Position numbers and translations under genes: made by a program. From IMG/VR virus record IMGVR_UViG_3300021964_000094, positions 1-53,602 of that record: 53,602 bases of DNA; one strand, written 5' to 3'. Origin of the DNA: a virus (Duplodnaviria; Caudoviricetes). Below the pieces are notes generated by a model. That model was given only the letters and a program-made list of their open reading frames with translations. It was not told the origin of the DNA and did not search any database. Shown one piece after another: positions 1-40,244 of the stretch (position 1 is the first letter of the stretch; the number at the start of each line of letters is the position of its first letter).

Positions 1-3000
1 GCTCCAGAATCCATCTACAGTACTATCGCTTTCTACTAATACGCTGTAAGGTCTAACCACTGCGTTAGCATTTAAATATTTTTTACCTTGATTAGTTACT
101 GTAACACTTGTAATTCTACCAAAGCTATCAACAGTAGACTCTGCTAATGCTCCAGATCCGTCACCTGTAATAGTAATCAATGGAGCTCTTTTATATCCAA
201 ATCCTGCTTCAACAATTTCTATTGTGTTAACATGACCATTAACAATGTTAATTAATAGTTTTGCTTCTCTAATTAAAGATGTAGTTTGAAATCTAAGTTC
301 TTTTTCAGAATCAATTGATACATCATAAAGATTCTTAACAAAGCTCGGTTTCTCATCTACTAGATTTAGATAACCGTAATCAATTTCATCTGCTAATGGC
401 AATGACATAAACGCATCATTGATAAATGTAATAGTTTGTTCAACTGCTTTGTTTCTATTAACAAAGATTGTTTGTCTAGGTCTACTTGAAATACCGTACT
501 TGTTTTTGTCAGTTAACGCAGGATCAGGTATTTGATTTCCTAAAATATCACTTCCTACTAAACTGTCAATCCATTTTCTTTCTAAATCTTCATTAGGATT
601 ATCTACACTTTCTTCAGTGGCTAACAAATACTCATTATGTATTAAGTTTACATCATCATTTGTTTTATAATATTGAATGTTTACGCTAAACTCGTCAGTC
701 GTTAACAGAGTTTTAAGATTACTAATAGTAATTTTGTCTTTATCAACTAGGTACGCAAACGGAACTCCAGCATTCTCTGGATTTTCAATATAATCAGCAA
801 CTTGTGATGCCGCTAATGTCTTTTCACTATTTGTTTCTTGAGTAAACTTATTCTTTACCCAGTAATAATATCTAGTTTTTGATATTTTTCCAGTTACAGG
901 ATTAACATTTCTTTTTACACTGTAAACAGTATCATCTGGATATAAAGGTGTTCCAGTTACGTCAGGATCATCTTTATTAGTTAAAGTAACATATTGGCTT
1001 GGTAAGTAAGGTGTTTCAACCCATTGATAAACATCAATTGAACTTCCTTCAGCATACTTGTTCCAATTACCGTTTCTAAATACAACATTGCCTTGTTCGT
1101 AAACTAGATATTTTACTTTTGAAGTATCCCACCAAATTTTGCCTACTTGAGCATCAGTCCAGTGTTGGCCTTCATCTATAGTTGTTAGTTCTTCATTAGA
1201 CGAGTCACTGTATACAGCAGGGTCAAAAGTAGTTTTAAAATCAATATTCTGTTCTACAATTCCTAGAACTTTTCCTTTATAATAATCTATAATATCAATG
1301 TCAGCTATCTTAGTGTATACATCTTTTTCGTATGCCGCTAAATTTTTTATCTTAGAAATATCAACTTGTGGCTGTTGTGATCTAATTGCTTCCCACGGTA
1401 ATACATTTTCAGCTTTTTCAAACTTTTGTATTCTACCAATAACAACTTCACTAAACGCAGGATCTGTAGAAAGATATTTTGGTGAACCTACAATAATTGT
1501 GTTATTACTTGTTGCTAACGCTGTACCAAAGTTTTCGTTATAATTAAGATCATCTTCAAAAATTTCGCCAAGTACCCAACGACCGCCATATTGATTAAAC
1601 ACAAAGACTTTGCCTGTAACACCTAACGGATCAGCATATTTTGTTGTTAGTCTATCAAACTTGGTTTGGTCTGTATCAAAAGTAGTTACATCAAACGTTT
1701 GTGCGCCTTCAGCAGATACTACTAACGTTTTACCGTCTGGTGAAATATCTAAATTAGATCCAAATCTTTCATCGTAATCTAATGTGTTAGATTGAATTCG
1801 TTGTTTGAATACAAAACTTGTTCCTGACCAATCAAAAACAAATACTGATCCTTGATCTTTTTCATTCTTGTCGGCATTTGGTGCGCCAACAAATAGTGTG
1901 TTACCATCTTTTGATATGATTACTTTGTAGCCAAACGCATCGCCTGGATTCAATGACGGGATAGAGTTTTTATTAATTTGCTGAACAAAGTTATAAACTC
2001 TATTTGTATTTTTCTTATAAACAAAAACTACACCAGTTCTTGGGAACGAAGTATCATTTATTTTAATCCACTTGTTATCAATTTCAGGAGCGTCATCAAT
2101 ACTTGTTAAACTAGAATCACTATCTAGCTCATAGTATTCATTGTTTCTTCTAACAATATCACCTTGAATATAAGTTTCAGTGTTTCGCCAAACACCTCTA
2201 TAATTTTCAAAATTATTTGTATCAGCATACGGAGCAGAAGCAACTAGTATGTTACCATCTTTGCTCATGCTTGTACTTGTACCAAACTTATCACCGATAT
2301 CAATATTTTCAATCTGCTCATCAGCTGTTCCTTGCTCTAGTGATGACCCATCATCTACATAAGCATTAACATTTGGAACAATGTTTTTATTAATAGTGTT
2401 TGATACTTCCCAATCGTCACTACTATCTGGAGTAGTTACACCGTCTGAAGTAAAGAATGTTGTTGCTGTATAATAAGAAGTTTGATACCATACAATGCTT
2501 CCTTCTGGATAACTTCTATTAATATCAAAAATTCCTACAAATTCTTTATCTTGTAAGAACGTCCATTTTGTTCCGTTGAACTGATATAAGTAAATCTTAC
2601 CTCTGTTATCTCTACTTCCTGGAGCAGAGATTGACATATAATAACTCTCATCAGTTGCTCCTAGATCTGTACCTAATATCTTAACTTGGTCTCCTACAAC
2701 GTATCCTGTGCCTGCTACACTAATAGTAGCACTGTAAGCGCCGCTTGCTCTTTGAATATTAAAGATTGCGCCTATTCCTGGATTTGAAATATCTTCAGGC
2801 GATACATCTAGGAAAGTTCCGCTTCCAGGGCCTGGAATGCCTACATACTCAATACCCAATGCGGCTGTGCCTGTAAAGCTAAAATATTTTATCTCACCTT
2901 CACGCTTTGTTGGAAATGGTCCTAACGACCCTAAATCTGATACTTGATTAATTCTTATTGTAATGTCGTTTTCTGGGGTTGCGCCGCCGACTGTATTTCC

Positions 3001-10743: not shown

Positions 10744-13700
10744 TAACTATTACTCGTCTTAGTTATAACCTGTGATTTTAACAAGTTCAATTCTATTGCT
10801 GTAATGGTATCAACTATCTGAATATCATCAACAGTTGCCGCACTAACCAAAATTTCATCTGGTCTTGCTTGTACTTCTGATAGGCTTCCGTATGCTTGAT
10901 TCTCTTGTTTAGGAACTAAAACGACGTTGCTAATTTCAGGTGAATTGTATTGAATAATATATGACAACAATTCACTAGAATGAAACTTGTCTCCAAAATC
11001 CCAATTATCAATAGCAAAGTAATTTGTAATACTGTTTATAATTTTGACCTTTAAATCATTATCATTAATTGTCATGTTTTTATTTTTAACAACTTTAAAT
11101 GTCGCTTGAAATTCTGTTTTTGCTTTTGTACCAAACAAAGGAAAATATGTTACTGGATGGTAAACAATTTCATCACTGATTGTTTTTAAATCTGCTAACG
11201 GTGTGCCAAACTGGATCCTTAAACTTTCTGGTGTAGGTTCTTGAGGTGCTGTTGTTACTGATCCATTTAGATACTTGCGGTAATTAATGTCGTACGTTCT
11301 AACAAGAAGGTAAACATCAATAATATTACTAACACTAGGATCAATTCTTCTATTGCTACTAGCATTATGAATATATTGGAATTTTAATCCGCTACGCCCA
11401 ATATAAGCAACATACGAGGGTTCTAAAATAAACGTTCTAGTAATTAGATCAACTCTTTTAATAAAGTTTTCTGCTTGATCATAAAAGTATATTAATTGAT
11501 TGTGATCATAATCATTAACATTTGTATTAACTTCTTTATCTTTAACTAAAATAGTATTGTTTTCATTATCGATAAAATCTAATTTTGTGAAACCAAAATT
11601 ATCAGTTGTCTTTTTAAAGAACAAGTATTTGTTTGACAAGTCTGTTCCAACGATATCATCAAAACTATCTGGATTATCAATTACACCGTCATCGTCACTG
11701 TCATAAAATGTTATCTTTACACTTTCAGTACTCTGATAGCCGTCTTCAAATCTAACGCTGTCAGCAATTTCAAACTTAATATCATTCTTTAATGTTCTGT
11801 CTTGGTCAATAATTGCTGTTACATCGTCTGCTGTAAAATCAGGATTTAAATTTTTAAGATTAATAATACTTGCGGCTAGTGTTGCTGGTGAAATTTCTTT
11901 ACCTTCTGGAACACTGTTAATGTCAAGTACGCTGATTTGATCTTTAATAACTGTTCTGTTCTTGCTATCATAGATCTTTTCAGATCTATCAAAATAAAAT
12001 CTATTTTGCTCTACACTTGAAAATACATAATTTGTTCCTCTAACACGGACTCTAAATTCGTCTCCATCGTAGACAAATGCTAATAACCAACCAGCATCTG
12101 CGTTTGTATTTGTGTTATCGCCTGCTTGACCTAAACTAAAATCACTGCTTAAATCAATGTTACTGCTTGATATAACTTTCCATGATCTAGTTTCAATGTC
12201 ATATCTTAATCCAAAAGTTTGACTAGCAAAACTTAGGTTTAATATTTCAGTTTCTATATCAACTGGTAAATTGCTAATAAACTTAGGAACAACCTGCGAA
12301 GGAACTGCGCTAGTTGGAATAGGGTCAGACAGTGTAATAGGTCCAACACCGTTTGATAAATTACCTACGCCAGCATTTGTACCGTCGCCTACTACTCTTA
12401 CTACTTTAGACCAAATATATTTTTTATGTGTCTTGTCTGTTGGATCATAAGTTACAATTTCGCCGTCTTTGAATGCTTGAGTAGACAAAGGAGGTAAAAA
12501 CTTAATTAAACTTCCTGCTTCAATAAATCTAAGGTTACTAGTTGTATAAACACCAATCTTGATTGGAAATTCATCAAAGATATTACCAAAGTAGCCAGTG
12601 CTACCGTTAATATCAGTTGTTGTTTGTAACCATTTTACACTTACGTCACTTGTAAAAATTTTATCAAAATTAGTTAGATAAAAATTATAAGTTTCAAAAT
12701 CTTCAATAGCAGGTTCTATTGTGTTTCTAATATAGTTTAGAATAATATTTTTATTAGTATACTTGTAACTAAAGTTGCGTTCAGTATCTGCTCTATAAAC
12801 TAAACCATCGTCGGCAAAAACATTTACCATTGAATACTTTCCGCTGGCATCAATAATGTCAAAATTTCGACTAATGCCGCTTGATGTTCTGTTTATTGCT
12901 TTTACTTTTAAAATTTCTTGTGAACTACCTAAAGGAGCAAGGTTATAATCTTCTCCAGTGACCATTCTGTTTTGTGTATAATACTGTGCTGGTGCTTTAG
13001 TTCTAATTGATTCAATAGTTTCTGATGCCGCACTATTATCAACAGTATATTGTAACGATAAAGTAATTGTAAGAGTTTGACTTGCTCCGGATTTACCTAC
13101 ATACGGAATAGATACTGTTATGTTACGCATATCTCTTGGAGATATGCTGTAAGTTGTTCCTGCTGATGTTCTATAAAACGCTCTAAATGTTCCTTGCGGA
13201 AGATTACCAAATACACCATCAGAAAACAATAAGTCAATGGCGTCATTTTCTTGTGTAATTACAGAATAGATATCTTTTTGTTGACTAGTTAAACTGTTAT
13301 AGATAATGTTATTGCCTTCTACACTATCTACTTTTGTCCATAGTGTATCTAAATTGCCATTAGCATCTAATTTATACAACCAAACATCATCATTGTTAAT
13401 TCCTTGTGATGTGATAGAAACTTGTTCATTTACAGTCGGCTGTGTAACTTCAAAGTCAGCACTTTGAAGGGATCCTTGCTTAAACATCATAAAGAATCCT
13501 GTATTAGCACTAGCATTACCTCTACCATCTTGTCTGTAAATAAAACCGTAGTTTCTTCCAGGCATCGGAGACTCTTCATAAATGTAATCTTGTCCGATTA
13601 TTGAAGTACTTGGAATTTCAAATTTTAAACTTCTTCCGCCAGCACTTTTACTAAAATTAAAAAGTGGAGATGTTTCATTAGAACTATTAAAACTGTACTG

Positions 13701-20896: not shown

Positions 20897-21910
20897 ATGG
20901 CGCTATTTAAAAAAGCGGCCTGCTTCACTGATATCCACTTTGGGATGAAGTCCGGTAGTAGACTTCATAACAAGGACTGCGAAGATTTTGTAGAGTGGTT
21001 TATTGAAGAGGCCAAAAAAGAAAATTGTGATGTTTGTATATTTTTAGGTGATTGGCACCATAATCGTGCTACCACTGACGTAAGCACTATGAATTACAGT
21101 GTGAGTAACCTAGAAAAATTAAACAACGCATTTGATAAAACATATCTAATGCTAGGCAATCATGACGAATTTTATAAAGACAAAAGAGAAATACACAGTT
21201 TAGAATTTGCTAGACTATTTCCTAATATTGTCCCAGTTAATCATCCAATTACAGAAGGCGATGTTACGCTTCTTCCTTGGCTAGTAGGCGACGAATGGAA
21301 AAAAGTAAAAGATATTAAATCAAGATATATCTTTGGACACTTTGAACTTCCATTGTTCTACATGAATGCTATGGTTCAGATGCCTGATCACGGACAACTT
21401 CAAGCAGACGATTTTATTAATCAAGAATATGTATTCTCAGGGCATTTTCACAAACGTCAAACTAAAGGGAATATTACATATATGGGTAACGCATTTCCTC
21501 ACAACTACGCAGATGCGTGGGATGACGAACGCGGAATGATGATTTTAGAATGGGGCGGAACACCTGAGTATCGCAGTTGGCCTGATCAACCTGTTTATCG
21601 AACCTTTAAATTATCAAAGCTATTAGAAAATCCGGATCAACTACTAACTGGACGCATGCACTGTCGTGTTACTATTGATGTTCCTATTAGTTTTGAGGAA
21701 GCAAACTTTATTAAAGAAACATTTATGCCGCAGTATAACTTGCGTGAACTAATGCTGATACCTGAAAAAGTAGAACTTGAAGGCCAGGATGTTAAGCCCA
21801 TCGACTTAAAATTTGAAAGCGTTGATACTATTGTTGTAAATCAAATTACAAACATTGACTCAGAACAATACGATCAAAAACTACTATTGGAGATCTATAA
21901 TAACCTATGA
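20897..21910 (+). CDS. gp47: Recombination endonuclease subunit (Mre11/SbcD-like)
   Basis: Metallophosphoesterase motifs DIHFG, GDWHH, GNHD, GHFE, SGHFH. Confidence 0.95.
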   Translation: MALFKKAACFTDIHFGMKSGSRLHNKDCEDFVEWFIEEAKKENCDVCIFLGDWHHNRATTDVSTMNYSVSNLEKLNNAFDKTYLMLGNHDEFYKDKREIHSLEFARLFPNIVPVNHPITEGDVTLLPWLVGDEWKKVKDIKSRYIFGHFELPLFYMNAMVQMPDHGQLQADDFINQEYVFSGHFHKRQTKGNITYMGNAFPHNYADAWDDERGMMILEWGGTPEYRSWPDQPVYRTFKLSKLLENPDQLLTGRMHCRVTIDVPISFEEANFIKETFMPQYNLRELMLIPEKVELEGQDVKPIDLKFESVDTIVVNQITNIDSEQYDQKLLLEIYNNL

Positions 21911-23685
21911 TCAAAATTAAAAATCTCACAGTTCGTAACTTTATGAGTGTTGGTAATCAAACTCAAGCTATTGATTTTGATAAAGGAATGCTTACACTTG
22001 TGTTAGGCGAAAACTTAGATCTCGGCGGAGATGATAGCGGTGCTAGAAACGGTACCGGTAAAACAACTATCATTAACAGTTTAAGTTATGCTATCTACGG
22101 TATTGCTCTTACAAACATTAAAAGAGACAACCTTATTAACAAAATTAACAGCAAAGGCATGCTTGTAACTGTTAGTTTTGAAAAGAATGGCGTAAAATAT
22201 CATATTGAACGAGGACGTAAACCTAATATTCTAAAACTAAATGTTGATGGTGAAGAATATTCAGCTGATGATGCTGACGAATCTCAAGGTGACAGCAGAC
22301 AAACACAAAAAGAAATTGAAAAACTATTTGGCATGAGCCACGATATGTTTAAACATCTTATTGCTCTTAATACCTATACAGAGCCGTTCCTTTCTCTTAA
22401 AGCGAATGATCAACGTGCTATCATCGAACAATTACTAGGCATTACTATTTTGTCAGAAAAAGCCGATGCTTTAAAAGAACAGGTTAGAATTAGCAAAGAT
22501 TTAATACAACAAGAAAATACAAAGATTGAAACTATTAAAGTAAGCAATCAAAAAATTGAAGAATCTATTCAGAGTCTAGAACGCAAACAAAAAATGTGGC
22601 AAGATAATCATAGTAGCTCTGTTTCTGACTTGGATCAAAGTATTACACTGCTAGAAAAAATTGACATTGAAGCAGAAATCGACTCACACAAGTGTTTAGA
22701 AAATTATAACGAAAAGAAAAAACGTCTAGAAGAAGCACAACGGTGGATTGCTAATATTGATGCTGACAATATTAAACAAGAAAAAACTATTGCTAAACTG
22801 GAAAACGAAATCAGTTTGTTAAAAGAACACAAGTGTCATACTTGTGGACAAGATTTACATGATAAACAACAACAAGAAATTTTAAACAGCAAAGAAGATC
22901 AAAAGAAAGAAGCCGCACTACAAATTATTTCTAATAACAGTCAGTGGGAAGAACATACTAATGTAGTTAATGAAGTTGGAGAACTTGAAGTTTGTCCTCC
23001 AACACAATATGATTCACTTGAAGAAGCTGTTAATCATAGAAGCACACTTGCGAGTTTACATAAAGAATTAGAAAACAAAAAAGCAGAAATTAATCCGTAC
23101 AAAGAACAAATTATTGAACTAAAAGAAACTGCTTTACAAGAAATTAACTGGGATGCTGTAAACGATCTTACTAAAGTAAAAGAACATCAAGAATTCTTAT
23201 ACAAATTACTTACAAACAAAGACAGTTTTGTAAGAAAACGTATTATTGACCAGAACCTAAGTTACTTAAACATGCGCTTAACATACTATCTGAGCAGGAT
23301 TGGTTTACCGCACACCGTAGAATTTCAGAACGATTTAAGCGTCGTTATTACACAACTTGGGCAGGACTTAGACTTCGACAATCTCAGTAGAGGTGAACGA
23401 AATAGACTCATTTTATCAATGAGTTGGGCGTTCCGTGACGTTTGGGAAAGCCTGTATCACAGCATTAATTTACTGTTTATTGACGAATTAGTAGACAGCG
23501 GCATGGATTCTAGTGGAGTAGAATCTAGTATTGCTGTATTAAAGAAAATGACTAGAGAACGTGATAAAAACGTATTCTTAATTTCGCACAGAGACGATTT
23601 AGCAACTCGTGTTAATCAAGTTCTTAAAGTTATTAAAGAGAACGGGTTTACATCATACTCCAACGATGTAGAATTGGTGGAATGA
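21907..23685 (+). CDS. gp46: Recombination ATPase subunit (Rad50/SbcC-like)
   Basis: Walker A NGTGKT, coiled coil with zinc hook CHTC, signature LSRGE, Walker B LLFIDE, ISH; ATGA overlap with gp47. Confidence 0.95.
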   Translation: MIKIKNLTVRNFMSVGNQTQAIDFDKGMLTLVLGENLDLGGDDSGARNGTGKTTIINSLSYAIYGIALTNIKRDNLINKINSKGMLVTVSFEKNGVKYHIERGRKPNILKLNVDGEEYSADDADESQGDSRQTQKEIEKLFGMSHDMFKHLIALNTYTEPFLSLKANDQRAIIEQLLGITILSEKADALKEQVRISKDLIQQENTKIETIKVSNQKIEESIQSLERKQKMWQDNHSSSVSDLDQSITLLEKIDIEAEIDSHKCLENYNEKKKRLEEAQRWIANIDADNIKQEKTIAKLENEISLLKEHKCHTCGQDLHDKQQQEILNSKEDQKKEAALQIISNNSQWEEHTNVVNEVGELEVCPPTQYDSLEEAVNHRSTLASLHKELENKKAEINPYKEQIIELKETALQEINWDAVNDLTKVKEHQEFLYKLLTNKDSFVRKRIIDQNLSYLNMRLTYYLSRIGLPHTVEFQNDLSVVITQLGQDLDFDNLSRGERNRLILSMSWAFRDVWESLYHSINLLFIDELVDSGMDSSGVESSIAVLKKMTRERDKNVFLISHRDDLATRVNQVLKVIKENGFTSYSNDVELVE

Positions 23686-23948
23686 GTACAGAAAGCCATG
23701 ACAAACTTATAAAAGCATTTCAAGAATACTTTAAATGGGCCGATAAGTTTGAGTATAGTGGTTCAGATGCCGCCGGCATTAAAGCACGATATTGGCTTTC
23801 AGAAATACGTAACTTCTCTAGTTTAAGACGAAACGAAATACAAGATAAAAGGCAACAACGAAAGGCAACCAGAAAAGGCGTCATAGGTAGACCCAAGAAA
23901 GTAAGTAATGCTGATGAAGACGAATCCAGCATGGACTTACCAAAATAA
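23682..23948 (+). CDS. Small basic helical protein, histone H1-like Hc1 family-like
   Basis: KF..SGSDAAGIKAR..LSEI......RRNEIQ resembles the GNKAAGTRARK pattern of Hc1-like proteins; basic C-terminal tail; ATGA-coupled to gp46. Confidence 0.5.
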   Translation: MSTESHDKLIKAFQEYFKWADKFEYSGSDAAGIKARYWLSEIRNFSSLRRNEIQDKRQQRKATRKGVIGRPKKVSNADEDESSMDLPK

Positions 23949-24375
23949 ACCTATTGAATGTATTCCTGATGAATACGAAGGGTTTGTCTACCTCATCACA
24001 AACACACATACTGGGCAAAAATACGTAGGCAAAAAACTAGCCAAATTCAAAACTACCAAACCGCCACTCAAAGGCAAAAAAAATAAACGCAGAGGCACTA
24101 AAGAAAGCGATTGGAGAGACTATTGGGGCTCATCAGATCGTTTAAACGCAGATGTCCAAGCACTAGGCCCAGAAAACTTCACAAGAGAAATACTATACCT
24201 ATGTAAAGGTAGGGGCGAAATGTCCTACATAGAGGCAAGAGAACAATTTGACCGCCGTGTATTAGAGAGAGATGATTATTACAACGGTATTATTAATGTT
24301 AGAGTTGGCGGTTCAGACAAGTTACGACAGGCATTGCTAGAACATAGCATCAAGGCAAAGCAATCCAACACATAA
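23908..24375 (+). CDS. Stand-alone GIY-YIG endonuclease (Seg-like catalytic domain only)
   Basis: GFVYLITN...KYVG, DYWGSS, REIL, E.REQF and YYN motifs; 155 aa with no evident C-terminal DNA-binding repeats. Start may be ATG 23914, 6 nt after TAAGTA (23902-23907). Confidence 0.85.
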   Translation: MLMKTNPAWTYQNKPIECIPDEYEGFVYLITNTHTGQKYVGKKLAKFKTTKPPLKGKKNKRRGTKESDWRDYWGSSDRLNADVQALGPENFTREILYLCKGRGEMSYIEAREQFDRRVLERDDYYNGIINVRVGGSDKLRQALLEHSIKAKQSNT

Positions 24376-24780
24376 GGTTAGCGGGCCAGTTTAGAAATAC
24401 CGCTGTGAAAAAAGTCTCCGTATAGGAACACACGTACACGTTGATCGACACACCAGAGTGTGGAAGCCATCAAAAGAATTGGGCTCACTGGTTGACGTAG
24501 ATAGAATGTTGGCTGTCGAAAAACTGTATATTACACATAAAAACTCCTTAGCACTAGGAACGAGGCGGGAGGTAATGTATTATAAAGAAGGCATAAAAGC
24601 GTTTTATGCGCTCTATATAGTACATAATGTCGACGTAGGTTGGGAAAGGTCAGAGCCCATTGTGTAGCAGTATAATAAACACCTACTTCCAAGTCTCGGC
24701 TGTGACGGACTCACATAAAGTCAAGATTAGATGGAACCCTTAAACAGGTTCCGTCTGACTGAAACAATCTACATAAAGCT
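24376..24780 (+). ncRNA. Candidate large structured non-coding RNA of unknown class
   Basis: Intergenic and richer in G/C than its flanks. About a dozen complementary segments, several with G-U pairs on the plus strand: 24379-84/24400-05, 24449-53/24458-62, 24575-98/24602-25, 24727-38/24747-58. Long-range pairs: 24385-90/24487-92, 24480-86/24653-59, 24523-37/24661-71, 24635-40/24681-86. Confidence 0.65.
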
Positions 24781-24782
24781 AA

Positions 24783-24875
24783 AATTGCTTCGCAATTATT
24801 ATATTGTATAAATATCTATAATAAAAAAATGTGTTTGAGCGATAGCGATAAACACAAGTGAGCTTTAGCTCACTT
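24783..24875. other. Cluster of three short inverted repeats around an AT-rich tract
   Basis: AATTGC-TTC-GCAATT (24783-97); TGTGTTT..GAGCGATAGCGA..AAACACA (24830-56); AAGTGAGC-TTTA-GCTCACTT (24856-75). Confidence 0.6.
24807..24814 (+). promoter_or_regulatory. T4-type late promoter
   Basis: Exact TATAAATA upstream of the 435-aa ORF; gp55 is encoded in the window. Confidence 0.65.
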
Positions 24876-24896: not shown

Positions 24897-26204
24897 ATGA
24901 AACTGAATCAATTAGAAAATATCGAACATCTAGATGAAGCACCACAAGGCATATTCAAAAGAATGGGCTTAAAAACAAAATCAGCTTTTGGAAGTGATGT
25001 TGCTAAAGGACAACTTCAATCAGGTGATGCAGCAAATAAACTAAAAAAAGAATATATGCTGTTTGTGGGGCGTATGGCAGGGAAAGTTGGTACAACAAAG
25101 CCAACAACAGATACACTTCTTGCGTTCCTAAAAAGCAAAGGTGCTGATACTAAAGCAGTTGCTGGCATGATTGACAAAGAGCTACAGGCTCTTGCGCCAC
25201 AACAGCAAGAACCAGTTTCAAATGAGCCTTCAGCTGAACCTGAAAAGACAGAGCCGGAAGTGGGTTCCGATACTGAGCTAGACAAACTTAAATCACAAAA
25301 TTCAACAGATCAAAATAACCCTCTCAAGCCGGGCAACAATACAACAAATATGAAACAAACAGATTTGGGTTTGGACAATCCGAATGATCCTCAAGGCGAT
25401 CTGTTTAAAAGTAATCCAATTCCGAGCATGTCTACTAACAATACTACTGTTACTACAAAAAGAAAAAAGACAGGTGGTAAAATAGCCGGAAAAACTTCTA
25501 TGACCAAAAATGCTATTAGAAAACGTAATAGTAGAAAGAAACCTGGAGATCAACTAGAATTACTATCAATGTACAGTGAACAATCGCAACGCTACAGAAA
25601 AAACTTTGAACGCATTGATTGGACACTAAAAGAAGATCAAGCATACTTTGACGCACTTGAATTTATGGGTGTTATGGAAGCTGAAATTCCAACAAAAGTA
25701 TTAGACAAAGTATTAAACAGTGTAGCAGTAGATTTAACAGAACCGGCTGCCGCAGATGTTAACGCACCACAAGATGATCAACAGTCAGGACAAGATGATC
25801 AACAGTCAGGTGCTGACAATGCTGGCACACAAAAGAAGGGTGGCGGCCTTTTAAAAGGCATAGGCAAAGCAGTTGGCGGCGTTTTTGACAAAGCCAAAGA
25901 TGGTGTACAGTCAGGCCTAGGTGATAATCCTGAAGATAAACAAGCCTCAAAGATTTTTGATCCAGATGACGAAAAAGGCACCGGACAGATGCGAGGTACA
26001 TTAAATTACCAGAACATCAGTAAAGAATTTCCGGGAATCGATCCTACAATGTTAAGAAGAAGTATGTCTAAAAGTTTACAAGGACAACCACTTACTAAAT
26101 CTGAACATGAAACTATGTCTTTAGCAATGACAGAACTAGTAAAGAAAAATCCTCAAGATACAGTTAAAGTTATGAACTTGTTTAAGCAAGCAAGGCAAGA
26201 TTAA
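24897..26204 (+). CDS. Hypothetical protein, probable internal head/virion protein
   Basis: 435 aa, low-complexity. N-terminus MKLNQLE...LDE-A resembles a propeptide cleaved after Glu by gp21-type proteases (inference). Late promoter upstream. Confidence 0.55.
   Translation: MKLNQLENIEHLDEAPQGIFKRMGLKTKSAFGSDVAKGQLQSGDAANKLKKEYMLFVGRMAGKVGTTKPTTDTLLAFLKSKGADTKAVAGMIDKELQALAPQQQEPVSNEPSAEPEKTEPEVGSDTELDKLKSQNSTDQNNPLKPGNNTTNMKQTDLGLDNPNDPQGDLFKSNPIPSMSTNNTTVTTKRKKTGGKIAGKTSMTKNAIRKRNSRKKPGDQLELLSMYSEQSQRYRKNFERIDWTLKEDQAYFDALEFMGVMEAEIPTKVLDKVLNSVAVDLTEPAAADVNAPQDDQQSGQDDQQSGADNAGTQKKGGGLLKGIGKAVGGVFDKAKDGVQSGLGDNPEDKQASKIFDPDDEKGTGQMRGTLNYQNISKEFPGIDPTMLRRSMSKSLQGQPLTKSEHETMSLAMTELVKKNPQDTVKVMNLFKQARQD
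25769..25810 (+). repeat. Perfect 21-bp tandem duplication (QDDQQSG x2)
   Basis: ACAAGATGATCAACAGTCAGG repeated twice, in frame. Confidence 0.9.
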
Positions 26205-39698: not shown

Positions 39699-39775
39699 GT
39701 CAGATAGTGTACCACCAAAGGTGGTGGGCTTATGCTGTTACCCACAGCGTACCGGATAGAACCCGGATAGGACTA
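39699..39775 (+). ncRNA. Candidate structured 5' leader (multi-stem junction)
   Basis: ACCACC-AAA-GGTGGT (39711-25), TATGCTGT/ACAGCGTA (39731-38/39744-51, one G-U), CCGG/CCGG (39752-55/39763-66), closed by TAGT/ACTA (39705-08/39772-75). Confidence 0.55.
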
Positions 39776-39794
39776 CTTTTATAGGAGAAAACAA

Positions 39795-40244
39795 ATGGGA
39801 AGACCACTTAACAAAAAATTCTTTGGACCACCTACATTGGGTGGAAATGAAATCAAATGTGATTTCTGGGGCACAGCAGGTGTGCTTGAAGGTTACATTG
39901 TAAAACAGCTAGGATCTAAAAAATTCCGTGTTGCCGCTATCGGAACACCAGGAACTACTTATGATCGTTATCTAACAACAGGTAAATTAGCATCAGCACT
40001 AACAGGTACTGAAATGGCAATTACTATGTTAATGGATGATTCAGAAACATACCAAGTTTCAAAAATCGCAGGACGTAGAGCAACATTGATTGCTCCAGAT
40101 GGCACAGGTTCTAATGCTTATGATGGCAAAAGTGTACCATGGAACTTTGCGGCTGATACTGGCGACGGTGCTGCACAAGTTGAAGAAGCTGGTGACGACG
40201 ATACATTGATCGGCACAGACGACGACGATTTTGCTAACGCATAA
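39795..40244 (+). CDS. Virion structural protein (149 aa)
   Basis: MGRPLNKKFFG...GYIVKQLGSKKF.V; strong SD; first gene after a late promoter. Confidence 0.6.
   Translation: MGRPLNKKFFGPPTLGGNEIKCDFWGTAGVLEGYIVKQLGSKKFRVAAIGTPGTTYDRYLTTGKLASALTGTEMAITMLMDDSETYQVSKIAGRRATLIAPDGTGSNAYDGKSVPWNFAADTGDGAAQVEEAGDDDTLIGTDDDDFANA

What the first reader, a model, noticed from the sequence alone, without database searches (positions are those of the whole stretch)
23902..24780. Minimal GIY-YIG nuclease followed directly by a ~400-nt pseudoknot-rich RNA: candidate nuclease-ncRNA system
Seen: the GIY-YIG stop (24373-75) is followed at once by a non-coding stretch in which almost every segment has a partner. 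Local stems: TAGCGG/CCGCTG 24379-84/24400-05; TTGAT/ATCAA 24441-45/24469-73 enclosing CACAC/GTGTG; CTCC/GGAG 24544-47/24568-71; a long irregular hairpin 24575-24625; TGTGA/TCACA 24701-15; a 12-bp stem 24727-58 with two G-U pairs. Long-range crossing helices: loop GCCAGT 24385-90 with ACTGGT 24487-92; TGGGCTC 24480-86 with GAGCCCA 24653-59; ACTG..TTACACA 24523-37 with TGTGTAGCAGT 24661-71; GTCGA/TCGAC 24515-19/24630-34; GTAGGT/ACCTAC 24635-40/24681-86; GGAA/TTCC and CGAGGC/GTCTCG 24557-66/24687-98. The G-U pairs favour a plus-strand RNA. Known: T4 Seg and I-TevI GIY-YIG enzymes carry separate DNA-binding domains, and IscB/TnpB nucleases use an adjacent structured RNA (HEARO/omega RNA) for targeting. 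Inference: this 155-aa nuclease has only the catalytic domain with a basic insert (KTTKPPLKGKKNKRR), so the co-transcribed RNA may be its scaffold or guide, a ribozyme, or a replication/recombination-associated RNA. I cannot match it to group I or II introns, RNase P or tmRNA.
Basis: partly seen in the sequence, partly recalled or inferred. Interest (0 to 1): 0.85.

Follow-up and report, generated by a model that had tools for sequence, protein, structure and literature searches.

The report
Twin-word structured phage RNA behind nuclease
The gene-free stretch behind a small nuclease gene of this uncultured T4-like phage encodes a real, intricately folded RNA of about 400 bases, a relative of a catalogued but unexplained RNA family. 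It does not look like a guide for the nuclease, and its function is still open.

Summary
The RNA is real. Window 24376-24782 (+) folds into helices that keep pairing through compensatory changes: 92.1% of cells paired and 25 pairs changed on both sides, against 3-8 in slid controls.

It is not novel as a kind. In sister phages the same slot holds an RNA whose 5' third is Rfam Polynucleobacter-1 (RF01718). The window's version gets no Rfam hit but shares the 3' module.

The guide idea is not supported:
- Distant nuclease homologues lack the RNA.
- Sister clades place a PD-(D/E)XK resolvase-like gene there instead.
- One locus has the RNA alone.
- No guide-like variable segment exists.

The oddest feature is one purine-rich word written twice about 58 nt apart (24709-20 and 24767-78). 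The two copies change in step by identity (72 of 74 and 100 of 100).

My best guess, at about 0.3, is that the RNA pairs back onto its own DNA to form an R-loop, as ColE1 RNA II does, and the neighbouring structure-specific nuclease processes it.

This scan has reported the same family before on other DNA.

The parts
21907..23685 (+). gp46-like SbcC/Rad50-type ATPase (context; start of the syntenic block)
   Evidence: PF13476 E 2.6e-14. The order gp46 - small ORF - nuclease - RNA is seen in the related loci.
23682..23948 (+). orf88, a small basic protein of unknown function that overlaps both neighbours
   Evidence: ORF. tblastn relatives (28-92% identity) lie between gp46 and the nuclease in most loci. 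No Pfam or PHROG family.
23908..24375 (+). 155-aa GIY-YIG nuclease, catalytic domain only
   Evidence: PF19835 E 4e-35 over residues 9-129; phrog_447. Synonymous divergence is lower than that of gp46 in 5 of 9 type-1 comparisons.
24376..24782 (+). structured RNA, 'type 1' of the extended Polynucleobacter-1 superfamily
   Evidence: Covariation. Conserved at 74-85% nt identity in 46 loci. Present in RNA-library contigs.
24380..24433 (+). 5' hairpins P1 (24380-84/24400-04) and P2 (24405-07/24431-33 plus 24414-18/24425-29)
   Evidence: helices 1-4. P2 pairs change on both sides.
24438..24498 (+). P3 (24438-44/24492-98), enclosing a swappable sub-domain with hairpin 24449-53/24458-62
   Evidence: helices 5 and 6: 3 and 4 pairs changed on both sides. 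About 15-19 of 41 relatives lack the window's form of the inner domain (gap counts per pair; alignment).
24500..24517 (+). P4 hairpin
   Evidence: helix 7: 3 of 5 pairs changed on both sides.
24523..24671 (+). P5 long-range helix (24531-37/24661-67 well supported; 24523-26/24668-71 depends on the alignment)
   Evidence: helix 10: 100% paired, 3 pairs changed on both sides.
24544..24571 (+). P6 hairpin with a conserved loop
   Evidence: helices 11-12.
24573..24627 (+). P7 variable-length arm
   Evidence: Length varies greatly in A1, with GNRA-capped short forms. The 'joints' in RNA contigs at 24544-74 to 24627 are these length variants.
24635..24686 (+). invariant core 28-mer (24635-62) and stem 24635-40/24681-86, which crosses P5 (pseudoknot)
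   Evidence: The stem never varies in type 1 (helix 13). The equivalent stem appears to covary in type 2 (by eye in A2).
24702..24723 (+). first box (GTGAC) and twin word copy 1 (ACTCACATAAAG, 24709-20), in a loop closed by about 24703-06/24720-23
   Evidence: The closing stem is only 70% paired in A1 (helix 14).
24727..24758 (+). 12-bp hairpin between the two word copies
   Evidence: helix 16: 98% paired. A GC-rich hairpin, often GNRA-capped, sits at this place in other types.
24754..24778 (+). second box (TCTGAC) and twin word copy 2 (ATCTACATAAAG, 24767-78)
   Evidence: The right-hand breakpoint of the RNA-type swap against L010 lies near 24764.
24783..24797 (+). short hairpin AATTGC-TTC-GCAATT, a possible weak terminator
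   Evidence: Read from the sequence. The loop-closing sequences change in step in the alignment. The consensus terminator scan did not call it.
24798..24830 (+). AT-rich spacer (GC 0.06) holding TATAAATA at 24807-14
   Evidence: and sequence. That TATAAATA is the T4 late-promoter consensus is recalled, not tested.
24831..24875 (+). hairpin with loop GAGCGATAGCGAT (24831-55), then hairpin 24856-75
   Evidence: Conserved with stem covariation in the alignment. Found by regex in 45 of 59 type-2 loci, and present in the stand-alone locus L503.

Best explanation
Shown:
- Window 24376-24782 (+) is a gene for a large structured non-coding RNA.
- It belongs to a superfamily found behind the gp46 - small ORF - nuclease block of hundreds of uncultured aquatic T4-like phage contigs.
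- In most sister phages the 5' third of this RNA is the orphan Rfam motif Polynucleobacter-1. The window carries a different, unrecognised 5' domain, and its 3' region corresponds to theirs.
- It is transcribed together with the GIY-YIG gene.

Shown by distribution: the RNA is not tied to this enzyme. The neighbour can be a GIY-YIG nuclease, a PD-(D/E)XK resolvase-like nuclease, another gene, or nothing.

Inferred mechanism (about 0.3 on its own):
1. The RNA acts on its own DNA locus.
2. The purine-rich word shown in a hairpin loop (copy 1) is identical to copy 2, so it is complementary to the template DNA strand at copy 2.
3. While or after RNA polymerase passes copy 2, the upstream word and its GTGAC box anchor the transcript to the template and hold an R-loop next to the AT-rich spacer. 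ColE1 RNA II does this with its rG stretch on the dC template stretch.
4. The neighbouring nuclease has only a catalytic domain. I read it as structure-specific, not sequence-specific. It would cut or resolve the branched product, to prime replication or to start recombination with gp46/gp47.

The stated confidence covers the shown part plus the claim that the twin word is read by a nucleic acid and not by the nuclease as a guide.
For: RNA reality:
- z -2.92 on the plus strand only.
- 25 pairs with changes on both sides against 3-8 in slid controls; 92.1% against 33-41% of cells paired.
- G-U pairs are kept in P3 and in the 12-bp stem.

Family:
- RF01718 hit at 67 bits in L010.
- 15 of 20 sister loci hit at 59-121 bits, starting 0-80 nt after the nuclease stop.
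- A model built only from type-2 3' modules finds 24691-24781 as the best hit of the whole window on both strands (15.2 bits, E 0.046), aligned box for box.

Linkage and independence:
- 107 of 118 loci holding the exact 28-mer have the GIY-YIG gene upstream. The other 11 have under 275 nt upstream.
- 103 of 119 type-2 loci have GIY-YIG, 1 has PD-(D/E)XK, 2 have neither and 13 are too short.
- 30 of 38 PD-(D/E)XK loci carry the 3' module.
- L503 has the RNA alone.

Twin word:
- 72 of 74 unique type-1 sequences agree at 7 positions.
- 100 of 100 parsed type-2 sequences agree, across 8 states; 6 of 106 could not be parsed.
- 20 states were tabulated by hand.
- In the 37-sequence type-2 set chosen for identical copies, no other column of the RNA follows the word (best MI 0.57).
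- No consistent complementary site lies within about 1.6 kb upstream and 1.2 kb downstream.
- In five 104-169-kb records only 1 extra 11-mer complement turned up, equal to the control rate.
- Free variation held only to 'copy 1 = copy 2' fits reading by a strand that changes automatically, which is the locus's own DNA.
- The words are purine-rich: mean 0.76, range 0.57-0.88, against 0.57 for the whole RNA.
- An AT-rich stretch (GC 0.06) follows.

Nuclease:
- The PD-(D/E)XK substitute is PF24608 / phrog_244 'RusA-like Holliday junction resolvase'. Its homologues in cultured phages are annotated as resolvases.
- The locus sits beside the gp46 recombination nuclease gene.

Precedent: ColE1 needs the rG stretch of the RNA on the dC stretch of the template for a persistent hybrid, and T4 oriF/oriG work through R-loops (passages of PMC4412123).
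Against: - No experiment or read-level data show an R-loop, an RNA 3' end or replication starts here.
- The cumulative GC-skew minimum lies near 19-21 kb, not at the RNA, and follows the switch of gene orientation.
- The two copies keep a constant difference just before the word (CTC against TCT). Simple self-DNA pairing does not explain this.
- A trans partner encoded by the host, or in the missing part of the genome, cannot be excluded. The window is an estimated 15% of a genome, and the five long records are 29-46% complete.
- A protein reader is not excluded.
- The elaborate, highly conserved 5' and central domains, including a 28-nt invariant stretch, are more than an R-loop anchor seems to need.
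- That the GIY-YIG enzyme is structure-specific is inferred from its size and from the enzyme that replaces it. It was not tested. PHROGs also relates it to homing endonucleases.
- The RNA-library evidence comes from contigs. DNA carry-over is possible, and the flanks may lack cover only because they are more diverged.
Confidence: 0.55

Rival explanations
1. Trans-acting regulator or decoy. The RNA works away from its locus. It shows the same single-stranded word twice, once in a hairpin loop and once before the last hairpin, to one partner RNA of the host or of the phage. It would act as a two-seed antisense RNA or as a sponge.
For: - Identity covariation over 20 tabulated states, with otherwise free variation, points to base pairing with a common partner.
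- The layout of a loop word plus a 3' single-stranded word before a hairpin resembles multi-seed bacterial small RNAs (recalled).
- L503 has its own promoter-like box, so the RNA can be a gene of its own.
Against: - No complementary site that follows the word was found in the RNA, in the flanks, or in five 104-169-kb records.
- A host target would have to change in step across many phage lineages.
- 400 nt of conserved, knotted structure is far more than known seed-bearing small RNAs have.
Confidence: 0.2
2. Mobile nuclease parked beside a conserved RNA gene. The GIY-YIG (or PD-(D/E)XK) gene is a free-standing homing endonuclease that cuts nuclease-less or different alleles in or near the conserved RNA gene and is copied in together with the flanking RNA. 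The RNA has a function of its own.
For: - Synonymous divergence of the GIY-YIG gene is far below that of the adjacent gp46 in 5 of 9 type-1 comparisons (pS 0.37-0.52 against 0.70-0.81).
- The GIY-YIG gene plus RNA is 74-85% identical in DNA where the gp46 end is about 70%.
- The RNA type is swapped between two close phages, with breakpoints at the 3' end of the nuclease gene and at copy 2.
- Two nuclease families alternate at one site.
- PHROG profiles relate the protein to homing endonucleases.
Against: - The nuclease is nearly universal at this site: 70 of 80 gp46-anchored loci, with most misses being truncated contigs. Homing genes are usually sporadic (recalled).
- No empty site holding the RNA was found in the same context.
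- The protein lacks the DNA-binding region that known Seg enzymes use for site recognition (155 aa, with the domain covering 9-129; Seg architecture recalled).
- The PD-(D/E)XK alternative looks like a resolvase.
- This reading explains the neighbourhood but not what the RNA does.
Confidence: 0.2
3. The RNA is the scaffold, activator or guide of the adjacent nuclease, and the two form a ribonucleoprotein.
For: - In this clade the RNA almost never occurs without a nuclease gene directly upstream.
- The two are co-transcribed.
- The enzyme has only a catalytic domain plus a basic insert that is longer in RNA-linked lineages than in three cyanophage homologues.
- The twin word could be a programmable element.
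Against: - The Melnitz homologue has the same basic insert and no such RNA module. There is a 148-nt gap and then small ORFs, no Rfam hit and no twin word.
- The RNA works with two unrelated folds, with an intervening gene (L260) or alone (L503).
- The 5' domain is exchanged between phages with 88%-identical enzymes.
- No unstructured variable guide segment exists.
- No Rfam HEARO or omega-RNA match.
Confidence: 0.12
4. Cis-acting 3' UTR. The structure only stabilises or autoregulates the nuclease (operon) mRNA.
For: Its position right after the stop codon, and co-transcription.
Against: - It stands alone in L503 and lies behind a different gene in L260.
- A 28-nt invariant core, a pseudoknot and the twin word are more than a protective 3' structure needs.
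- The same RNA follows unrelated genes.
Confidence: 0.08
5. Self-splicing intron or other ribozyme carrying a nuclease ORF.
For: - Group I introns host GIY-YIG and PD-(D/E)XK endonucleases interchangeably (recalled).
- The RNA has a pseudoknot and GNRA-capped arms.
Against: - No Rfam intron or ribozyme hit at E up to 10.
- There is no interrupted host gene, and the block upstream of the nuclease ORF is not conserved as RNA.
- The last base of copy 2 is not a conserved G.
- No RNA contig joins across the element, though contigs cannot prove absence.
Confidence: 0.03

Closest known systems
Polynucleobacter-1 RNA motif (Rfam RF01718; Weinberg et al. 2010, PMC2864571; I saw only its table row via 'find'; the supplement with details is closed)
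   Same: It occupies the same genomic slot in sister phages, directly after the nuclease stop. The RNAs that hold it share with the window the core hairpin region, the twin-word 3' module and the downstream GAGCG..AGCGA hairpin. Function is unknown in both.
   Different: The Rfam model covers only about 141 nt, the 5' third. The window's 5' domain gets no hit even at E up to 10 on 180 nt. The published table calls the motif possibly cis-regulatory and lists it for Burkholderiales and fresh water/estuary. Here it is part of a roughly 400-nt RNA of T4-like phages that lies 3' of a gene.
ColE1 RNA II pre-primer and T4 oriF/oriG R-loop origins (as reviewed in PMC4412123, passages read)
   Same: A structured transcript of several hundred nt. 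A segment of the RNA must match a downstream template stretch (rG on dC in ColE1), which appears in the DNA as a direct repeat, like the twin word. An AT-rich stretch follows, as in the T4 origin unwinding element. A nuclease processes the hybrid in ColE1.
   Different: There is no sequence or structural homology. The word here is a variable purine-rich 7-12-mer, not a G run. No origin activity, R-loop or processing has been shown. GC skew gives no origin signal at this place.
HEARO / omega RNAs of IscB and TnpB
   Same: A large structured RNA next to a small nuclease gene and transcribed with it.
   Different: Different nuclease folds. There is no transposon end and no variable guide at an RNA end. 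No Rfam hit. The RNA occurs with two unrelated nucleases or none.
Free-standing GIY-YIG homing endonucleases of T4 (Seg proteins) (recalled; the Pfam family name comes)
   Same: The catalytic domain matches the SegE-type profile (E 4e-35). The gene is intergenic and shows signs of lateral movement.
   Different: Only 155 aa, with no C-terminal DNA-binding part. It is nearly universal at one locus instead of sporadic. A resolvase-like PD-(D/E)XK gene replaces it in sister clades.

Membership tests
Polynucleobacter-1 RNA (RF01718) | Scores at or above the family's gathering threshold (37 bits) with the Rfam covariance model | tested here: not met
   No hit in the window at gathering, at E up to 10 on 1.2 kb, or on 180 nt. 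Sister loci score 59-121 bits.
Polynucleobacter-1 RNA (RF01718) | Same genomic position and shared downstream architecture with RNAs that are members | tested here: met
   Same gp46 - small ORF - nuclease - RNA order. The type-2 3'-module model finds 24691-24781 as the top hit of the window, E 0.046. This feature is mine and is not part of Rfam's definition.
HEARO / omega RNA guide RNAs | Rfam match, or a conserved scaffold with a hypervariable unpaired guide segment at one end, beside an IscB/TnpB gene | tested here: not met
   No Rfam hit. Both ends are conserved: the 5' end at the stop codon and the 3' end at the twin word. The neighbour is GIY-YIG or PD-(D/E)XK.
Group I intron with endonuclease ORF | Rfam intron match; an interrupted host gene with conserved exons; a terminal G at the 3' splice site; spliced junction in RNA | tested here: not met
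   No hit. No exon continuity. The last base of copy 2 varies. No joint across the element in RNA contigs, which is weak evidence.
ColE1-type pre-primer / R-loop origin RNA | An upstream RNA segment identical in sequence to a downstream non-template stretch, so that it can pair with the template | tested here: met
   The twin word is identical in 72 of 74 and in 100 of 100 sequences, and varies freely otherwise.
ColE1-type pre-primer / R-loop origin RNA | A persistent RNA-DNA hybrid, nuclease processing to a primer, and replication starts at the site | not testable with these tools
   Only indirect evidence: an AT-rich spacer, and no skew signal at this place.
SegE-type GIY-YIG homing endonuclease | GIY-YIG catalytic domain of the SegE profile | tested here: met
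   PF19835, E 4e-35, 121.2 bits.
SegE-type GIY-YIG homing endonuclease | A separate DNA-binding region and a sporadic, mobile distribution | tested here: inconclusive
   There is no room for a second domain (155 aa), and the gene is present in 70 of 80 related loci. But synonymous divergence is lower than in gp46. Site-specific cutting was not tested.

The most novel reading that the evidence does not exclude
A new kind of phage replication or recombination start site. A large, knotted RNA anchors itself to its own template DNA through a freely evolving twin word to form a programmed R-loop. A swappable structure-specific nuclease encoded just upstream (GIY-YIG in some lineages, PD-(D/E)XK in others) processes that R-loop next to the gp46/gp47 recombination genes. 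This would be the first defined origin-type element for the large uncultured aquatic T4-like phage clades, and a function for the orphan Polynucleobacter-1 motif.
Probability: 0.3. Interest if true: 0.85.

Novelty: new variant of a known kind. Interest (0 to 1): 0.6.

Why it matters
- The family is abundant.
- The work shows that an orphan Rfam motif, catalogued in 2010, is only the first third of a roughly 400-nt phage RNA.
- The RNA comes in exchangeable types.
- It carries a rare evolutionary signature: two copies of a word that covary by identity, not by complementarity. That signature narrows the possible mechanisms to ones that can be tested at the bench.
- If the self-DNA pairing idea holds, it would give a handle on how these uncultured phages start replication or recombination.
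- It also warns against reading every 'small nuclease plus structured RNA' pair as an RNA-guided system.

Tried and rejected
1. Known RNA families. Rfam at gathering and at E up to 10 gave nothing for the window's RNA. ARAGORN found no tRNA or tmRNA.
2. Hidden coding. There is no conserved ORF, and the indels are not in threes. I considered a translational bypass like T4 gene 60 and a stop-start overlap in the word. I dropped both because the region is closed in all frames and the spacing between copies (47-79 nt) is not a multiple of three.
3. A third pairing partner for the twin word. None was found inside the RNA, within about 1.6 kb upstream and 1.2 kb downstream, or in five long records. 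The freshwater-2 RNA of the window has no complement.
4. C/D-box, hammerhead, CsrA-site, CRISPR-repeat and anticodon-loop mimicry of the word. I compared these by eye from recalled consensus sequences and dropped them, because the needed bases are not kept in all word states.
5. Bacterial context of RF01718. My degenerate pattern scan of genome contigs returned only scattered hits that look like chance.
6. Cultured phages. No DNA match for the window's region or for two other RNA types.
7. nhmmer with a type-1 profile found almost nothing in type 2 (one hit, E 1.4e-4). A generic twin-word finder gave too many false positives and was replaced by curated lists.
8. The consensus promoter and terminator scan was no better than shuffles.
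9. RNA-library cover. Nothing maps beyond about 24803, and run X2 covers only the ORF. These are contigs laid at 80% likeness over flanks that diverge faster, so I draw nothing from the holes.
10. Complex prediction, structure prediction and the protein searches were not used. They cannot take RNA and would not decide between the readings.
Full report
**What is there**

The window is a fragment of an uncultured T4-like phage, estimated at 15% complete. Three genes run on the plus strand:
- a gp46-like SbcC/Rad50-type ATPase at 21907-23685 (PF13476);
- an 88-aa basic ORF at 23682-23948;
- a 155-aa GIY-YIG protein at 23908-24375, matched over residues 9-129 by the SegE-type catalytic-domain profile (PF19835, E 4e-35).

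The next long ORF starts at 24897. The 521 bases between hold no ORF of 70 aa or more. Rfam finds nothing there at E up to 10, and ARAGORN finds nothing in the window.

**Is the RNA real?**

- The plus strand of 24376-24780 folds better than every one of 100 shuffles (z -2.92). The minus strand does not (z -1.07).
- Eighty viral contigs encode close relatives of the nuclease. In 46 of them DNA similarity runs as one block from the nuclease gene to about 24780, at 74-85% identity. The end of gp46 is only about 70% identical.
- I fitted a structure to the 41-sequence alignment A1. In it 92.1% of cells are standard pairs and 25 pairs change on both sides. With the 3' partners slid by 1-3 columns the figures are 33-41% and 3-8 pairs. 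None of 500 shuffles reaches the observed values.
- Indels are not in multiples of three, and one arm (24573-24627) ranges from about 50 nt to a short GNRA-capped stem.
- G-U pairs in P3 and in the 12-bp stem are conserved, which fits a plus-strand RNA.

Confirmed:
- 24380-84/24400-04;
- CACAC/GTGTG;
- CTCC/GGAG;
- the variable hairpin;
- the 12-bp stem;
- the long-range helix 24531-37/24661-67.

Plausible: GTAGGT/ACCTAC. It never varies here, but the equivalent stem appears to covary in the sister type (by eye in A2). It crosses the long-range helix, so there is at least one pseudoknot.

Not supported: GCCAGT/ACTGGT, TTGAT/ATCAA, TGGGCTC/GAGCCCA, GTCGA/TCGAC, GGAA/TTCC and TGTGA/TCACA. Together they have 1 pair with a change on both sides and do no better than shuffles.

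**Relation to a known family**

- Three loci with close nucleases carry a different sequence of similar length downstream: L010 (88% identical) and L064 and L073 (83-85%).
- The first 142 nt of the L010 RNA match Rfam Polynucleobacter-1 (RF01718) at 67 bits.
- Of 20 further sister loci, 15 match at 59-121 bits, always starting 0-80 nt after the nuclease stop.
- The only paper in the library that names the motif lists it in a table as a possible cis-regulatory RNA of Burkholderiales and fresh water/estuary, with no function given (PMC2864571; table row seen, supplement closed).
- The Rfam model covers only the 5' third of these RNAs of roughly 350-450 nt.
- The window's RNA ('type 1') gets no hit, but its 3' region corresponds to theirs: a core hairpin region, then a module of box - word - hairpin - box - word.
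- A covariance model built only from 42 type-2 modules puts its best hit of the whole 53.6-kb window, both strands and filters off, at 24691-24781. It aligns box for box, at 15.2 bits and E 0.046. The score is weak, but the position is exact.

**Is it tied to the nuclease?**

Within the clade the link is very strong:
- 107 of 118 contigs with the exact 28-mer core have the GIY-YIG gene upstream. The other 11 have under 275 nt of upstream sequence.
- Of 119 contigs with a type-2 core 19-mer, 103 have GIY-YIG upstream, 1 has another nuclease, 2 have neither and 13 are too short.

The link is not specific to this enzyme:
- Loci L217 and L267 have a PD-(D/E)XK endonuclease in the same place (PF24608, E 5.6e-30; phrog_244 'RusA-like Holliday junction resolvase'), followed by the RNA.
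- Of 38 contigs found with that protein, 30 show the 3' module downstream, nearly all of them behind gp46.
- In L260 a 272-aa ORF separates the GIY-YIG gene from the RNA.
- In L503 the RNA stands behind a divergently transcribed gene with its own TATAAT box and no nuclease.
- Conversely, homologues of the GIY-YIG protein in cultured phages lack any such RNA. These are Melnitz at 65% and three cyanophages at 45-47%.
- No segment of the RNA looks like a guide. The variable parts are paired arms, and both ends are conserved.

**Movement**

- Against five type-1 loci, gp46 is saturated at synonymous sites (pS 0.70-0.81) while the GIY-YIG gene is not (pS 0.37-0.52). In two other loci both genes are saturated, in L092 the gap is small (pS 0.73 against 0.64), and in one close relative both are near dS 1.0.
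- The window and L010/L204 have 92%-identical gp46 but different RNA types. The breakpoints lie near 24344 and 24764.
- So the nuclease gene and the RNA are exchanged between phage backbones. This fits homing, or simply frequent recombination at this locus.
- The nuclease is present in 70 of 80 loci found through gp46. Most of the misses are truncated contigs. That is unlike a sporadic selfish gene.

**The twin word**

- In the window, ACTCACATAAAG (24709-20, in a loop) and ATCTACATAAAG (24767-78) flank the 12-bp hairpin. Each is preceded by a GTGAC-like box.
- Across relatives the core word takes many forms, and the two copies change together by identity:
  - 72 of 74 unique type-1 sequences agree at seven positions.
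  - 100 of 100 parsed type-2 sequences agree, in eight states; 6 of 106 could not be parsed.
  - The PD-(D/E)XK clade shows further states.
  - I tabulated 20 states by hand.
- In the 37-sequence type-2 set chosen for identical copies, positions 5, 6 and 9 agree in all 37, and no other column follows them (best MI 0.57).
- I found no complementary partner in the RNA, in the flanks, or in five records of 104-169 kb. One extra 11-mer turned up there, the same as the control rate.
- The words are purine-rich: mean 0.76 against 0.57 for the whole RNA.
- Free variation constrained only by 'copy 1 = copy 2' is what one expects if a nucleic acid reads both copies. The one partner that changes automatically is the locus's own DNA, because the RNA of copy 1 is complementary to the template strand at copy 2.

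**Transcription**

- RNA-library contigs from three studies (X1, X6, X12) cover the nuclease ORF and the RNA.
- Single contigs bridge the stop codon (24217-24436, 24353-24519, 24362-24485).
- These are contigs from relatives laid at 80% likeness. DNA carry-over is not excluded, and neither levels nor ends can be read from them.

**Best reading**

- Shown: this is a gene for a structured RNA of the extended Polynucleobacter-1 superfamily. It is co-transcribed with a nuclease gene that can be swapped or be absent, so it is not a guide for that enzyme.
- Inferred, at about 0.3: the RNA anchors itself to its own template through the twin word and holds an R-loop next to the AT-rich spacer (24798-24830, GC 0.06).
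- The precedents are ColE1 RNA II, where the rG stretch of the RNA must pair with the dC stretch of the template, and T4 oriF/oriG (passages of PMC4412123).
- The neighbouring catalytic-domain-only nuclease would then be structure-specific, like the resolvase-type enzyme that replaces it, and would process the branch beside gp46.
- Against this: there are no direct data. GC skew turns near 20 kb and not here. The constant CTC/TCT difference is unexplained. The RNA is far more elaborate than an anchor needs.
- The rivals are a trans partner, a homing gene parked beside an RNA gene, a ribonucleoprotein, a plain 3' UTR, and a ribozyme. They are scored in their own section.

**Earlier notes of this scan**

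After I had reached these points I looked the family up. About ten earlier reports on other genomes describe the same RNA family, the RF01718 link, the twin word, the swappable nuclease and the ColE1 analogy. They are notes of the same kind as this one, not independent evidence. One of them gave me the review that I then read.

**Verdict**

The RNA is a real feature and a new variant of a known but unexplained RNA family. The RNA-guided nuclease reading is not supported. Function is unknown, and a testable R-loop hypothesis is on the table.

Noticed in passing
window 39711-39797 (+): A full-length match to the Rfam freshwater-2 RNA motif (78.6 bits, gathering 49.9), ending a few bases before an ATG at about 39796. 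It is unrelated to the finding and has no complement to the twin word.
   Followed up: partly
window 24831-24875 (+): A hairpin whose loop holds two AGCGA words (GAGCGATAGCGAT), followed by a second hairpin. It is conserved with stem covariation behind the RNA in type 1, in 45 of 59 type-2 loci, and in the stand-alone locus L503. It may belong to the RNA unit or to the leader of the next gene.
   Followed up: partly
window 24807-24814 (+): TATAAATA inside the AT-rich spacer. It equals the T4 late-promoter consensus as I recall it, and would start a late transcript through the AGCGA hairpin into the 435-aa ORF at 24897.
   Followed up: no
L217:5017-5583, L267:4960-5466 and 38 loci L523-L560: A PD-(D/E)XK 'RusA-like resolvase' gene (PF24608, phrog_244) takes the place of the GIY-YIG gene behind gp46 in sister clades. 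This is an apparent non-orthologous replacement at one locus.
   Followed up: yes
L503 (oriented), about 12880-13330: A type-2 RNA with the twin word and the AGCGA hairpin stands alone behind a divergent gene that looked to me like a 5-aminolevulinate synthase (judged by eye, not searched). It has a TATAAT box about 30 nt upstream and no nuclease gene.
   Followed up: partly
loci L003, L006, L009, L012, L014, L018 and many others: Many contigs end 30-250 nt after the nuclease stop, that is, inside the RNA. Co-existing RNA types or arm lengths in one sample probably break the assemblies there.
   Followed up: no
window 23682-23948 (+) and relatives: A small basic protein (61-88 aa) sits between gp46 and the nuclease in most loci and overlaps both genes. 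It has no Pfam or PHROG family. It is another candidate reader of the RNA that I did not test.
   Followed up: no
L460 (oriented) 214-1452 (-): A 412-aa protein whose C-terminal end looked to me like a Vsr/DUF559-type endonuclease, with repeated helix-turn-helix-like units (judged by eye). It lies on the opposite strand next to a hairpin that holds the 19-mer core but lacks the rest of the RNA.
   Followed up: no
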